A DNA stretch of 7,294 nt from a virus (taxonomy: Duplodnaviria; Heunggongvirae; Uroviricota; Caudoviricetes). The stretch spans positions 1 through 7,294 of the IMG/VR virus record IMGVR_UViG_3300000059_000050; one strand, given 5' to 3'. Both the position numbers and the translations under genes were made by a program. The notes beneath the pieces are model-generated. The model saw only the letters and a list, made by a program, of their open reading frames with translations, made no database searches and was not told the origin of the DNA. Shown in pieces: positions 547-5,032 of this stretch (position 1 is its first letter; every line of letters begins with the position of its first letter).

Positions 547-1032
547 TTAGTTTTGCTGTTCTATTTTAAGCTTGATAGTTTCATACAAAACAATAGTTGC
601 GCCTGTTTTACATAATTCCCGGCTGTCATACGCGCGAGACCAATAACACAACCAGTTCTCGAGATCTTCTCGAGTATAGGTTTTGCAGGCCAGTCCCTTT
701 GCCATTTCCACGATTTCATCGCCTGGTGCTGTTAACTCATAGCCATTCAACAACAAGAAGACGTAACCAGCCATCATAGCTGTTCGTTTGTTCGCATTAG
801 CAAACGGATGATTCTGAATCAGACTTTCAATCAATACCGATGCCAGTACAAACATGTCATTAGTCTGTTCATACCATCGAACCATGCTGGGACGGGCCTG
901 AGAAGAACTTAAGTTATCTGGACTCAGGACACCAACGGGCTCATCTGGCGTCTGTAATTCAATTAGGGAACGATTGATTTCAACAAGATCATCAACCGTA
1001 AGGTAATGCACTCCTTCAACAATCTCAGCCAT
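547..1032 (-). CDS. Doc-family (death-on-curing, Fic/Doc fold) type II toxin, about 161 aa
   Basis: Translation contains HPFANANKRTA, matching the Doc signature H-x-F-x-(D/N)-A-N-K-R (P1 Doc has HIFNDANKRTA). Start taken at ATG 1030-1032 (MAEIVEGVHYL...); the track ORF begins at a TTG at 1041. Lies 18 nt downstream of a small ORF, the usual antitoxin-toxin layout. Confidence 0.8.
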   Translation of the reverse strand: MAEIVEGVHYLTVDDLVEINRSLIELQTPDEPVGVLSPDNLSSSQARPSMVRWYEQTNDMFVLASVLIESLIQNHPFANANKRTAMMAGYVFLLLNGYELTAPGDEIVEMAKGLACKTYTREDLENWLCYWSRAYDSRELCKTGATIVLYETIKLKIEQQN

Positions 1033-1050
1033 AGAGCACAATACCCATCA

Positions 1051-1230
1051 TTACACTTTTGAAAGTTCTTCCATGGCTTTCTCATAACGAGAAAAACCGA
1101 AATCAAAAGCATTTTTCACTTGTTCACGATGTGCGCAGTTTTCATCAATCGCTGGGCGAGGGACTGCCACAACGCTTTTATCGCGAGGCGGAATACTCAA
1201 CCGCGTGTGTTTTTTGATTGGGCAGCTCAT
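1051..1230 (-). CDS. Putative antitoxin partner of the Doc toxin, about 59 aa, family unassigned
   Basis: Small ORF directly upstream of the Doc gene on the same strand. ATG at 1228-1230 is preceded by AAGGA (MSCPIKKHTRLSIPPRDKSVVAVPRPAIDE...); the track ORF starts at a TTG 48 nt further upstream. I do not recognise it as Phd/YefM-like; the call rests on position and size. Confidence 0.5.
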   Translation of the reverse strand: MSCPIKKHTRLSIPPRDKSVVAVPRPAIDENCAHREQVKNAFDFGFSRYEKAMEELSKV

Positions 1231-1293
1231 ACTAATGAGTCCTTTTGTTTTCCGATTATTGGCAAAGCCATGCACCAAATTTGATACAAAATA

Positions 1294-1341: not shown

Positions 1342-1355
1342 CCTCATAATGCGAC

Positions 1356-1376
1356 GAAAAACCCGCCGAAGCGGGT
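1356..1376 (-). terminator. Rho-independent terminator downstream of hok
   Basis: Minus-strand RNA reads AACCCGC-UUCG-GCGGGUU followed by UUUUUCG. The 19-nt core AAAACCCGCCGAAGCGGGTT is identical to the hairpin at 511-531. Confidence 0.55.
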
Positions 1377-1447
1377 TAAGTGCGGGTGCGTTGAGGATGC
1401 CTGACACATCAGAGGTGGCGAGGGATTTCTCCCTCGCCTGGTCACTC

Positions 1448-1603
1448 TTACTTCTCAGATTCGTAGTCTACGAAGACAGCGACCTCCGTCTGGCCGGTTC
1501 GGATTCGTACCTCGCAGAGGTCTTTCCTCGTTACCAGTGCCGTCACTATGACGGTTAAACAGATGACGATCAGGGCGATTAACATCGCCTTTTGCTGCTT
1601 CAT
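1448..1603 (-). CDS. hok: Hok/Gef-family type I membrane toxin, 51 aa
   Basis: MKQQKAMLIALIVICLTVIVTALVTRKDLCEVRIRTGQTEVAVFVDYESEK is near-identical in pattern to chromosomal HokD/RelF-type Hok peptides as I recall them (TM helix, then RKxLCEVRxxxGxxEVAxF). ATG at 1601-1603 is preceded by AAGGAGAAG. The track ORF 1448..1660 is an in-frame extension from an ATG 57 nt upstream. Confidence 0.9.
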   Translation of the reverse strand: MKQQKAMLIALIVICLTVIVTALVTRKDLCEVRIRTGQTEVAVFVDYESEK

Positions 1604-2104
1604 AGCCTGCTTCTCCTTGACCTTTCGGTCCGTAAGAGGCAATCTATATGTGACGAGCATATAGGGGCCTCACTTCGATTTATAGTCGGGTGGGGCTTTT
1701 CTCTATCTGCCTTGCAGTGGCATGCCCGAGACAGATAGCCTCAAGCACCCGCAGCAATTCTAACTATCCAATACATCACTGCCAACACTTTAAACTCTCG
1801 CCCTTTAAAACAAGAACAAAATTCAACCAATCAGCATTGGACGCATACTCATATCCTAGAGAAAACGACTCTTTCTGTACTATCTACATCCATTTGATTT
1901 ATAAGCATTTGCCGCTTGCCATAGCCGCACAATGACAGTTTGCCATTTGATGTCAATAGATAAAAACGATCATTTTCAATGAGTTACATACTTGCAAGGC
2001 GTTGCACATCAGGCCCGATTGCATCAGTATCAAAAGATAACAGATGGTGCATTACTGCCACCTCGCCTTAATGTTCCAGAACTATTCAACTTGAGGAATT
2101 TTCA
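1604..2104. promoter_or_regulatory. AT-rich divergent intergenic region: expected hok leader and antisense control region, plus the promoter of the KilA-N gene
   Basis: About 500 bp with no convincing ORF and visibly lower GC than the flanks. Hok loci are known to carry long structured leaders and a short antisense RNA; here these are inferred from position, not seen. Several -35/-10-like hexamers are present but none could be assigned with confidence. Confidence 0.35.
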
Positions 2105-3577: not shown

Positions 3578-4000
3578 TCATTCCTTAACCTGCAACTGCT
3601 TCTTAACCAGTTTACGTAGATGTGCCACAGCCATAGAAAGAGTTTCCACCGCTCGTTTATCCAGCTGTGGGGACAGAGACACCAGTTCGTTTATTGCGAT
3701 CTCAATGCCCTGTGCCTGCACTGTGGGAGCTGGCGGCACACGATACAGCGGAATTACACGACGCGGGTCTGCGTATTTATCTGGAGGACAAGGTAATAAA
3801 TAACCTAAACCAATTTGCTCAACATCTCGCAGTTCCTCGTCATCAGTCCATGCAACTGGTTCTGCTTCCAGCGATGCCAGCGCGATACGAAACACATTGG
3901 CAAGCAGGCTGCTTGAAGATTGGTTATCGTGCGCCGGGTCGCTCAGGAAACCAGTGATGAATGATTTAATTTCCGCGTTTTCTCTGGTAGTAGTGGTCAT
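3578..4000 (-). CDS. Prophage early-region protein of unknown function, 140 aa; paralog of the 2999-3574 product
   Basis: Start ATG overlaps the stop of the upstream gene (ATGA). Motifs RIALASLEAEPVAW and RVIPLYRVPPAPTV. Confidence 0.7.
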   Translation of the reverse strand: MTTTTRENAEIKSFITGFLSDPAHDNQSSSSLLANVFRIALASLEAEPVAWTDDEELRDVEQIGLGYLLPCPPDKYADPRRVIPLYRVPPAPTVQAQGIEIAINELVSLSPQLDKRAVETLSMAVAHLRKLVKKQLQVKE

Positions 4001-4206
4001 TTGTTAATCCTCAAAACTTTATGCCCGGGCGCAAAAGCACGTGTTTTGTCTTTACTTATTCGCCACCCGTCTTTACGGGCCTCTTTTGCACAACCAGACC
4101 ATGACGTACCGATATACTCACCGAAGTCTGGCACTGGATATACACCTTCCGTACACTGGCGGCAGTCACAATAGAGATGCATGGTGTAACTTGCGGCAAT
4201 AGCCAT
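3997..4206 (-). CDS. Small Cys-rich protein (C-x-C-x2-C ... C), putative zinc-binding, 69 aa; tandem paralog copy 1
   Basis: AAGGAGA lies 5 nt before the ATG. Near-identical to the 4817-5032 product (MxIAASYTMHLYCDCRQCT...GEYIGTSW.GCAKEARKDGWRIS.DKTRAFAPGHK). Four conserved Cys. Confidence 0.75.
   Translation of the reverse strand: MAIAASYTMHLYCDCRQCTEGVYPVPDFGEYIGTSWSGCAKEARKDGWRISKDKTRAFAPGHKVLRINK
4011..4206. repeat. Diverged direct repeat, copy 1 (about 196 bp; roughly 85-90% identical to 4837-5032 by eye)
   Basis: Aligned by eye without gaps to 4837-5032. Covers almost the whole Cys-rich gene; similarity continues into the upstream SD region. Confidence 0.8.
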
Positions 4207-4816: not shown

Positions 4817-5032
4817 TCACTCTCCTTTGTTGCTTCTCAAAATTTTATGCCCTGGCGCAAAAGCACGCGTTTTGTCGACGCTTATTCGCCACCCATCTTT
4901 ACGTGCCTCTTTTGCACAGCCAGCCCATGACGTACCGATATACTCACCAAAATCTGGCGACTGATATTTGCCATCCGTACACTGGCGGCAATCACAATAG
5001 AGATGCATGGTGTAACTTGCGGCAATACTCAT
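4817..5032 (-). CDS. Small Cys-rich protein, putative zinc-binding, 71 aa; tandem paralog copy 2
   Basis: GGAGG lies 4 nt before the ATG, which directly follows the TGA of the 119-aa gene. Same four-Cys pattern as the 3997-4206 product. Confidence 0.75.
   Translation of the reverse strand: MSIAASYTMHLYCDCRQCTDGKYQSPDFGEYIGTSWAGCAKEARKDGWRISVDKTRAFAPGHKILRSNKGE
4837..5032. repeat. Diverged direct repeat, copy 2
   Basis: Partner of 4011-4206, same orientation, 826 bp apart. Confidence 0.8.

What the first reader, a model, noticed from the sequence alone, without database searches (positions are those of the whole stretch)
1406..1700. Hok locus has an in-frame upstream start instead of an out-of-frame overlapping frame
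The only overlapping reading frame upstream of hok is in frame: ATG at 1658-1660, preceded by GAGG, giving a 70-codon N-terminally extended Hok. The other two minus frames have either stops or no start codon. Classical hok systems couple hok translation to an overlapping regulatory frame and are repressed by a short antisense RNA; I could not find a convincing antisense promoter or terminator by eye. The 3' UTR has a perfect 9-bp hairpin (GGCGAGGGA-tttc-TCCCTCGCC, 1406-1427) ahead of the terminator, which could act as a fold-back or stability element.
Basis: partly seen in the sequence, partly recalled or inferred. Interest (0 to 1): 0.5.

Follow-up and report, generated by a model that had tools for sequence, protein, structure and literature searches.

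The report
Ordinary prophage hok/mok/sok toxin–antitoxin locus

Summary
The sequence facts hold: hok (51 aa, 1603-1448, minus strand) is preceded by an in-frame ATG (1660-1658) with a GAGG 7 nt upstream, giving a 70-codon ORF. No other frame has a usable start. The 9-bp hairpin exists but lies at 1417-1438, not 1406-1427.

The interpretation does not hold. The upstream ATG is the canonical mok start.
- In the E. coli K-12 reference, mokC/hokC share a stop codon (57-nt offset, in frame).
- The same applies to the experimentally validated hokW-sokW of prophage Sp5, whose Hok is 100% identical to this one.
- Among 115 related loci, 80 have the 57-nt in-frame arrangement, 19 have 58 nt, and 8 have 56 or 59 nt.
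- Plasmid R1 (58 nt) is simply the other common variant.

All regulatory parts are present:
- hok promoter;
- leader matching Rfam RF01794 (105 bits);
- tac/fbi end-pairing;
- anti-SD blocks;
- terminator;
- an antisense Sok gene on the plus strand (-35 TTGACC, about 1652-1702, hairpin plus U-tract), collinear with annotated sokC.

The hairpin is the positional counterpart of the terminal stem that protects truncated hok mRNA in R1. The fold-back element is a separate sequence (1396-1384). Already known; low interest.

The parts
1757..1785 (-). hok mRNA promoter: -35 TTGGCA (1785-1780), 17-nt spacer, -10 TAGAAT (1762-1757). The predicted start is G1750.
   Evidence: The consensus scan scores 10/12. 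The -10 and downstream sequence are conserved in hokC, hokW and Rac loci. The Rfam leader model starts at 1750.
1355..1750 (-). Full-length hok (mok-hok) mRNA, about 396 nt.
   Evidence: The fold has MFE -163.1 kcal/mol and z = -7.2 against shuffles. It is collinear with 71 related mRNAs.
1601..1750 (-). hok mRNA leader, from tac to the hok AUG. This is the region matched by Rfam RF01794 'sok'.
   Evidence: The hit scores 104.8 bits against a gathering score of 59, E = 1e-23, covers the full model 1-157, lies on the hok sense strand and ends at the hok AUG.
1739..1750 (-). tac (translational activator) element, GGGUGCUUGAGG, at the 5' end of the mRNA.
   Evidence: It pairs with fbi in the full-length MFE and 97.9% of cells are paired in 72 sequences. 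In the mRNA truncated at 1415 it pairs with ucb instead.
1690..1696 (-). ucb, the anti-SD of mok (GCCCCAC).
   Evidence: It pairs with the GUGAGGC mok SD region in the full-length fold. Helix 4 is 96.8% paired with 4 compensatory pairs.
1668..1671 (-). mok Shine-Dalgarno sequence, GAGG.
   Evidence: It lies 7 nt upstream of the ATG at 1660. GAGG is the mok SD in R1 (PMC9841398). It is conserved in relatives.
1448..1660 (-). mok ORF: 70 codons, in frame with hok (57-nt offset). It is equivalent to an N-terminally extended Hok.
   Evidence: ORF list and frame analysis. The same arrangement is annotated as mokC in K-12, as the modulation protein in WGPS9 and as orf74 in VT2-Sakai.
1632..1640 (-). 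Invariant block GCCUCUUAC: dcb, the anti-SD of hok. On the other strand it forms part of the Sok promoter spacer.
   Evidence: It is invariant in the alignment. It pairs with the hok SD in the full-length fold (helix 6 is 95.6% paired). It pairs with the mok SD in the truncated fold.
1610..1618 (-). hok Shine-Dalgarno region, AAGGAGAAG.
   Evidence: It is conserved in all relatives. P(unpaired) is about 0.01-0.03 in the full-length mRNA and 0.7-0.8 in the mRNA truncated at 1415.
1448..1603 (-). hok toxin ORF, 51 aa.
   Evidence: Pfam HOK_GEF gives E = 1e-22. It is 100% identical to Hok of the Stx2a phage WGPS9 and of Sp5/VT2-Sakai.
1417..1438 (-). 9-bp stem-loop 9 nt after the stop codon: the predicted terminal stem of the 3'-processed (truncated) hok mRNA.
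   Evidence: The inverted repeat is located and predicted in all folds. It is 95.3% paired with 4 compensatory pairs. It is the positional counterpart of the R1 stem whose disruption removes Tr-hok mRNA (PMC9841398).
1384..1396 (-). fbi (fold-back inhibition) element, CCUCAACGCACCC.
   Evidence: It pairs with tac (12 bp with one bulge) in the MFE and is conserved (helix 1).
1357..1377 (-). Intrinsic terminator of hok mRNA: AACCCGC-UUCG-GCGGGUU plus a U-run.
   Evidence: It is predicted in the fold. The strict scanner misses it.
1617..1645 (+). Sok promoter: -35 TTGACC (1617-1622), 17-nt spacer, weak -10 CAATCT (1640-1645).
   Evidence: It matches the sequence upstream of the annotated K-12 sokC position for position: TTGACC-17-CACTCT. 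It occupies the same position as the sokW -10, which was mutated experimentally in PMC8621323.
1652..1702 (+). Predicted Sok antisense RNA, about 51 nt. It has an 11-nt single-stranded 5' tail antisense to the mok AUG region, then a hairpin and a U-tract.
   Evidence: The fold gives -19 to -23.5 kcal/mol and z = -4.2. The architecture is the same as annotated SokC. Its hairpin is the complement of helix 4, which shows compensatory changes. The ends are inferred by homology, not measured.

Best explanation
The region 1355-1785 is an intact hok/mok/sok type I toxin-antitoxin module of the prophage hokW/hokC lineage. It most likely works as described for plasmid R1 and for hokW-sokW.

1. A constitutive promoter produces a roughly 396-nt mRNA.
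2. In the full-length mRNA the 5' end (tac) pairs with the fbi block near the 3' end. This holds the mok SD against ucb and the hok SD against the invariant GCCUCUUAC block, so nothing is translated.
3. Slow 3'-exonucleolytic trimming removes the terminator and fbi and stops at the 9-bp stem-loop (1438-1417).
4. The tac element then pairs with ucb, the mok SD region re-pairs with GCCUCUUAC, and the hok SD is released.
5. Ribosomes starting at the mok AUG (1660) read through the hok initiation region and allow hok translation.
6. A short, unstable antisense Sok RNA (+ strand, about 1652-1702) pairs with the mok initiation region of the processed mRNA. This blocks mok, and therefore hok, and triggers RNase III decay.
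7. When Sok is lost, Hok is made and damages the inner membrane.

The frame of mok relative to hok is immaterial. Here it is in frame (57 nt), as in most relatives.

What is shown here: all sequence elements, their conservation and covariation, and the predicted fold switch.
What is inferred by homology: transcription starts, 3' processing, Sok expression and toxicity.
For: - Toxin and leader: Pfam HOK_GEF gives E = 1e-22. Rfam RF01794 gives 104.8 bits on the hok strand.
- Promoter: 10/12 match to consensus.
- Full-length fold: z = -7.2, with tac/fbi, ucb/SDmok and dcb/SDhok pairings, the 3' stem and the terminator.
- Conservation: across 72 related mRNAs, 90.5% of cells are paired versus about 40% when partners are slid. 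38 pairs show double changes versus 21.9 in shuffles.
- Fold switch: truncation at 1415 shifts the MFE to tac/ucb and SDmok/dcb, and raises P(unpaired) of the hok SD from about 0.02 to about 0.75.
- Sok: the Sok region is collinear with the annotated sokC. SokC/mokC duplexes are captured in vivo and the toxin transcript is stabilised in rnc mutants (PMC7373196).
- Functional homologue: Hok is 100% identical to Sp5 HokW. The hokW-sokW locus was shown to be a functional type I TA dependent on the sokW promoter, RNase III and Hfq (PMC8621323).
- In-frame mok is standard: K-12 mokC/hokC, WGPS9, VT2-Sakai orf74, and 80 of 115 loci, or 48 of 73 unique leaders.
- Frame is not conserved. Offsets of 56, 57, 58 and 59 nt all occur among close relatives. 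The invariant block GCCTCTTAC is read as P-L-T here and as A-S-Y in Sp5, so the constraint is on the nucleic acid, not the peptide.
- R1 mutagenesis shows that only mok translation up to the hok SD matters (PMC9841398).
Against: - There are no expression data for this particular sequence.
- The Sok -10 hexamer (CAATCT) matches only 2 of 6 consensus positions and the promoter scanner did not report it. K-12 sokC has the equally weak CACTCT.
- The predicted fold switch depends on where the 3' end is placed. Truncation at 1404 gives a different MFE, with a local 5' hairpin and the hok SD still paired.
- The tac/fbi helix shows only G-C to G-U changes and no double compensatory changes, so its support comes from conservation and energy rather than covariation.
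- The survey of relatives was seeded with hokW/hokC/hokB-type proteins and is not phylogenetically corrected.
Confidence: 0.93

Rival explanations
1. The locus is a decayed, inactive hok copy that has lost its regulatory elements, such as Sok, the promoter or the fold-back element. The in-frame ATG would then be a chance remnant.
For: - Some chromosomal hok copies are damaged. The K-12 hokC 3' region is replaced by IS186.
- 8 of 115 surveyed loci lack a recognisable GAGG-ATG mok start. For example, L067 has ACG at the mok start position.
- The consensus scanner found no antisense promoter or terminators.
Against: - Every element is present and intact here: promoter, tac, ucb, mok SD and ATG, dcb, hok SD and ORF, 3' stem, fbi, terminator, Sok -35, tail and terminator hairpin.
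- The mRNA fold is far more stable than shuffles (z = -7.2).
- The toxin is identical to a demonstrated active toxin (PMC8621323).
Confidence: 0.03
2. This is a new regulatory variant. Because mok is in frame, the functional product is a 70-aa extended toxin made from the upstream ATG. The internal hok AUG and translational coupling are dispensable, and Sok acts directly on the toxin's own start site.
For: - Ribosomes that start at the mok AUG must produce the 70-aa fusion, since there is no stop before 1448.
- The in-frame arrangement is the majority in this lineage.
- The extension is lysine- and arginine-rich. It therefore should not oppose an N-in membrane topology (inference).
Against: - The strong hok SD (AAGGAG) and the AUG are invariant.
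- Close relatives with nearly identical Hok have mok in the +1 frame (68 codons) or the +2 frame (19-20 codons). In offset-56 relatives the stop is the UGA inside AUGA at the hok start. Only the 51-aa product is common to all of them.
- The 19-residue extension is not conserved as a peptide. Two compensating indels change residues 8-14 between the window and Sp5.
- The 51-aa HokW alone is toxic when expressed from pBAD24 (PMC8621323).
Confidence: 0.04

Closest known systems
hokW-sokW (with mokW) of Stx2 prophage Sp5 / VT2-Sakai and 933W-like phages
   Same: - Hok is 100% identical over 51 aa.
- mok is a 70-codon ORF in frame at a 57-nt offset.
- The tac, fbi, hok SD and 3' stem positions are the same.
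- The setting is a lambdoid prophage.
[quoted passage not shown]
   Different: - Nucleotide identity over the locus is only about 86%.
- The window's leader is 22 nt shorter (147 vs 169 nt) because the ucb/Sok hairpin lacks an internal extension.
- Two compensating 1-nt indels change Mok residues 8-14 (PLTDRKV vs ASYVPKG). They also change the Sok promoter hexamers: TTGACC-17-CAATCT vs TTGCCT-17-TAACCT.
hokC/mokC/sokC (gef) of E. coli K-12
   Same: - mok is in frame at a 57-nt offset.
- The Sok hairpin is of the short type.
- The Sok promoter region is nearly identical (TTGACC-17-CACTCT) and the predicted Sok start position is the same.
- The Mok N-terminus is similar (MLNTCRVPLTDRKVKEKRA vs MLVTYRLPLTDRKVKEKQA).
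   Different: - Hok is 80% identical.
- The K-12 copy diverges after the stop codon next to IS186 and lacks the window's 3' stem, fbi and terminator in alignment.
- It is chromosomal rather than in an obvious prophage setting.
hok/mok/sok (parB) of plasmid R1
   Same: - The parts list and predicted logic are the same: tac/fbi, ucb, GAGG mok SD, a 70-codon mok, dcb, the terminal 3' stem of the truncated mRNA, and a short Sok with a single-stranded 5' tail (PMC9841398).
- The Rfam leader model is matched.
   Different: - In R1, mok starts 58 nt upstream of hok and is out of frame (mok AUG 116-118, hok AUG 174-176 in PMC9841398).
- HokW and R1 Hok are 44% identical according to PMC8621323.
- R1 is plasmid-borne.
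- An IncFII plasmid whose Hok is identical to the sequence I recalled from memory as R1 Hok (not checked against an R1 record) has the 57-nt in-frame variant.

Membership tests
[quoted passage not shown] | A Hok/Gef family toxin ORF of about 50 aa | tested here: met
   Pfam PF01848 gives 79.8 bits and E = 1e-22. The NCBIfam Hok subfamily model NF007279 scores 53.6 bits, below its 73-bit cutoff. The protein is 100% identical to Sp5 HokW.
[quoted passage not shown] | An upstream overlapping mok frame with its own SD that is translated through the hok initiation region (frame not specified) | tested here: met
   GAGG, a 7-nt spacer and the ATG at 1660 open an ORF that reads through the hok AUG. 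It is homologous to the annotated mokC and mokW. Translation itself was not tested.
[quoted passage not shown] | A structured hok mRNA leader (Rfam RF01794 covariance model) | tested here: met
   104.8 bits against a gathering score of 59, full-length match at 1750-1601 on the hok strand.
[quoted passage not shown] | Long-range 5'-3' pairing (tac/fbi) that locks the full-length mRNA | tested here: met
   A 12-bp pairing of 1750-1739 with 1396-1384 appears in the MFE. 97.9% of cells are paired in 72 sequences, with only wobble changes.
[quoted passage not shown] | A stable stem-loop just after the stop codon that becomes the 3' end of the processed mRNA | tested here: met
   A perfect 9-bp stem lies at 1438-1417. 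It is 95.3% paired with 4 compensatory pairs. It is the positional match of the R1 stem. Processing itself was not tested.
[quoted passage not shown] | A cis-encoded short antisense RNA (Sok) covering the mok initiation region, with its own promoter and terminator | tested here: inconclusive
   All sequence features are present and collinear with the annotated sokC: -35 TTGACC, a hairpin with U-tract, and an 11-nt tail. The -10 is weak and not found by the scanner. No transcript data exist for this sequence.
[quoted passage not shown] | Toxicity of Hok and its repression by Sok in vivo | not testable with these tools
   This was shown for the identical HokW protein and its sokW in PMC8621323, not for this allele of the leader.

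The most novel reading that the evidence does not exclude
In in-frame loci such as this one, ribosomes that start at the mok AUG necessarily make a 70-aa Mok-Hok fusion. One processed mRNA would therefore yield two toxin isoforms.
- The long form could have its own role, for example a less active or differently targeted pro-toxin.
- Sok would block the long form directly, while the short form would be controlled only by coupling.

My evidence does not exclude this. However, the free drift of the mok frame among close relatives argues that any such role is not conserved.
Probability: 0.1. Interest if true: 0.35.

Novelty: already known. Interest (0 to 1): 0.07.

Why it matters
It matters mainly as a correction. 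The textbook out-of-frame mok of plasmid R1 is one variant of a family in which the leader frame drifts freely: offsets of 56, 57, 58 and 59 nt occur among 115 close relatives, and the in-frame form is the most common in this prophage/chromosomal lineage.

That pattern is consistent with the published R1 result that only translation up to the hok SD matters. It also suggests that indels in this segment are tolerated as long as the RNA pairings hold and the spacing of the overlapping Sok promoter stays workable.

For annotation, it explains why the same gene is called either as a 51-aa Hok or as a 70-aa 'gef homolog/Mok'. Nothing here opens a new question of general interest.

Tried and rejected
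- The consensus promoter/terminator scan of 1250-1950 found only the hok promoter, with no Sok promoter and no terminators. I rejected this as evidence of absence. Folding shows both terminator hairpins. The Sok -10 is as weak in the annotated K-12 sokC, whose duplex with the mokC mRNA was captured in vivo. I suspect the scanner's stem extension consumes part of the U-run, but I did not check this.
- The Rfam hit named 'sok' was at first a candidate for the antisense RNA. It lies on the hok sense strand and ends at the hok AUG, so it identifies the hok leader, not Sok.
- A weak Rfam isrK match to the 3' UTR (27 bits against a gathering score of 50) was treated as a two-hairpin resemblance and not pursued.
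- Literature searches for an explicit statement that mokC/mokW is in frame with hok found none in the held library. The point rests on database coordinates and my own survey. My recollection that the gef leader frame was described in 1991 as an in-frame 'orf69' is from memory and unverified.
- The mRNA truncated at 1404 did not show the tac/ucb switch, whereas truncation at 1415 did. The thermodynamic support for the switch therefore depends on the end position.
- I did not use the large protein-database, structure-prediction or metagenome searches. The answer did not depend on them.

Full report
**1. What is in the sequence**

On the minus strand, hok starts at 1603-1601 and its stop ends at 1448 (51 aa). 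An in-frame ATG sits at 1660-1658, preceded by GAGG at 1671-1668. This gives a 70-codon ORF, MLVTYRLPLTDRKVKEKQA followed by Hok.

In the other two frames, nothing with ATG/GTG/TTG reaches the hok start.

The perfect 9-bp hairpin is real, but it lies at 1417-1425 / 1430-1438, 11 nt from the stated coordinates. It is one of five perfect hairpins of 9 bp or more in the window.

**2. The locus is a complete hok/mok/sok module**

- The 70-aa ORF hits Pfam HOK_GEF over residues 25-66 with E = 1e-22.
- Rfam RF01794 matches 1750-1601 at 104.8 bits against a gathering score of 59. The match is on the hok sense strand and ends at the hok AUG. The family named 'sok' therefore actually models the hok leader.
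- A promoter, TTGGCA-17-TAGAAT (1785-1757), is placed to start transcription at G1750.
- Folding 1750-1354 gives -163.1 kcal/mol, z = -7.2.

The full-length fold contains these features:

| Feature | Coordinates / sequence |
|---|---|
| tac/fbi end-pairing | 5' GGGUGCUUGAGG (1750-1739) with CCUCAACGCACCC (1396-1384) |
| mok SD sequestered | paired with GCCCCAC (1696-1690) |
| hok SD sequestered | AAGGAGAAG (1618-1610) paired with the GCCUCUUAC block (1640-1632) |
| 3' stem | 9-bp hairpin, 1438-1417 |
| terminator | AACCCGC-UUCG-GCGGGUU plus U-run (1377-1357) |

Truncating the RNA just after the 9-bp stem (at 1415) changes the predicted fold. The tac element now pairs with ucb, and the mok SD pairs with GCCUC. 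The probability that the hok SD is unpaired rises from about 0.02 to about 0.75. This is the rearrangement described for R1 (tac/ucb plus SDmok/dcb; PMC9841398). Truncation at 1404 does not show it, so this support depends on the end position.

**3. The antisense RNA**

The + strand carries, in order:
- TTGACC (1617-1622);
- a 17-nt spacer;
- CAATCT (1640-1645);
- 6 nt, then G1652;
- an 11-nt unstructured tail antisense to the mok AUG;
- a hairpin GGGGCCUCAC...GUGGGGC;
- the tract UUUUCU.

The fold of 1645-1706 has z = -4.2.

The annotated K-12 sokC (16952..17010, starting 8 nt inside mokC) has the same layout. Its upstream sequence is almost identical, TTGACC-17-CACTCT. SokC/mokC duplexes are captured in vivo, and the toxin transcript is stabilised in rnc (RNase III) mutants (PMC7373196).

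The corresponding -10 of sokW (TAACCT) was mutated experimentally and shown to be needed for antitoxin activity (PMC8621323; the paper's primers were located in the Sp5 sequence).

The strict scanner missed these elements.

**4. The in-frame upstream start is the canonical mok**

- In the K-12 reference, mokC (16751..16960) and hokC (16751..16903) share their stop, a 57-nt offset.
- mokB/hokB are offset by 58 nt.
- Phage WGPS9 annotates a 'host cell-killing modulation protein' and a 'small toxic membrane peptide' in frame.
- VT2-Sakai (Sp5) annotates the 70-codon ORF itself as the gef homolog.
- A Rac-type phage annotates mok out of frame at 58 nt.
- R1 is offset by 58 nt according to the numbering in PMC9841398: mok AUG 116-118, hok AUG 174-176.
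- An IncFII plasmid whose Hok matches the sequence I recalled from memory as R1 Hok has the 57-nt in-frame form. I did not check that query against an R1 record.

I collected 44 genomic and 80 viral loci. Together with the reference loci and the window, 115 loci were scorable (those with hok ATG at the expected position). I located the GAGG-preceded mok ATG in each:

| Offset from hok ATG | Frame | Loci (of 115) | Unique leaders (of 73) |
|---|---|---|---|
| 57 nt | in frame | 80 | 48 |
| 58 nt | +1 | 19 | 12 |
| 56 nt | +2 | 7 | 6 |
| 59 nt | +2 | 1 | 1 |
| no recognisable start | – | 8 | 6 |

With the 56-nt offset, mok has 19 codons and its stop is the UGA inside AUGA at the hok start.

The invariant nucleotide block GCCTCTTAC is read as P-L-T in the window and as A-S-Y in Sp5. 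This follows from two compensating 1-nt indels. Selection therefore acts on RNA pairing and the overlapping Sok promoter, not on the Mok peptide or its frame.

Those indels fall inside the Sok promoter:
- window: TTGACC-17-CAATCT;
- Sp5: TTGCCT-17-TAACCT;
- Rac type (worked out by hand from the alignment): TTGACC-18-TAATCT.

**5. Conservation of the structure**

On an alignment of 72 related mRNAs, I projected the window's full-length fold and counted pairs:
- 90.5% of cells are paired, against about 40% when partners are slid.
- 38 pairs show double changes, against 21.9 in shuffles.
- tac/fbi is 97.9% paired, with wobble changes only.
- The ucb/SDmok hairpin, which is also the Sok terminator on the other strand, is 96.8% paired with 4 compensatory pairs.
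- The hok anti-SD helix is 95.6% paired.
- The 3' stem is 95.3% paired with 4 compensatory pairs.

**6. The hairpin**

In R1, 19 of the 22 loss-of-function substitutions in the 3' UTR break C-G pairs of the terminal stem of truncated hok mRNA (for example G345A and C358A). They eliminate that RNA, presumably through 3'-to-5' exonucleases (PMC9841398).

The window's stem lies in the same place, 9 nt after the stop codon and upstream of fbi and the terminator. The 'fold-back' role belongs to the separate fbi block.

**7. Function**

The Hok protein is identical to HokW of Sp5. For that locus (PMC8621323):
- HokW was toxic.
- sokW neutralised it from its own promoter, dependent on RNase III and Hfq.
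- sokW RNA disappeared, and HokW appeared, after prophage induction.
- The system increased phage release.

The window is a lambdoid prophage segment, with KilA-N, DUF1627 and a Doc toxin nearby. The same role is the best guess here, by inference.

**8. Verdict**

This is a known system in its usual form, so interest is low.

The only residual question is whether the 70-aa Mok-Hok fusion, which in-frame loci must produce when mok is translated, has any role of its own. The free drift of the frame among close relatives makes a conserved role unlikely.

Noticed in passing
window 547-1041 (-) and 1051-1278 (-): A Doc (death-on-curing) family type II toxin lies about 300 nt downstream of the hok terminator (TIGR01550, 127.8 bits; Pfam Fic). 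Immediately upstream of it is a 75-aa ORF with no family hit, a candidate antitoxin. Two toxin-antitoxin modules therefore sit side by side.
   Followed up: partly
window 1601-1750 (-): Rfam RF01794, named 'sok antitoxin', matches the hok mRNA sense strand and ends at the hok AUG. It therefore models the hok leader rather than the antisense RNA. A hit does not give the Sok strand or its ends.
   Followed up: yes
window 1356-1437 (-): The hok 3' UTR (9-bp stem through terminator) gives a sub-threshold Rfam isrK match (27 bits against a gathering score of 50, E about 2e-4 for the short stretch). It shares an AAAUC loop and a two-hairpin layout. This may be mere resemblance or a distant relation of a prophage sRNA to hok 3' UTRs.
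   Followed up: no
L093 (IMG/VR), alignment A3 columns 341-367: One relative has the same 9-bp stem as the window but with the loop flipped (UUUC instead of GAAA in mRNA sense). It looks as if the palindromic hairpin had been inverted.
   Followed up: no
window 1617-1645 (+) and the same region in L001, L132: The 1-nt indels that switch the mok frame lie in the Sok promoter: inside the -35 (TTG[A]CC) and just before the -10 (GGC[T]AA). They give 17- or 18-nt spacers. Promoter geometry may be what limits the mok-hok distance to 56-59 nt.
   Followed up: partly
L131 (plasmid NZ_CP128973.1) 293-509: An IncFII plasmid whose Hok is 100% identical to the sequence I recalled from memory as R1 Hok (not checked against an R1 record) has an in-frame 71-codon mok at a 57-nt offset. 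R1 as used in PMC9841398 has 58 nt.
   Followed up: partly
window 3997-4206 (-) and 4817-5032 (-): Two paralogous small ORFs (69 and 71 aa, both starting M-[AS]-IAASYTMHLYCDCRQCT...) lie about 800 nt apart. The one tested had no Pfam match.
   Followed up: no
L067 (mok start position); L014, L019, L028, L036, L042, L081, L083: 8 of 115 related hok loci lack a recognisable GAGG-ATG mok start. L067 has ACG in place of the ATG. These may be inactivated copies or use another start.
   Followed up: no
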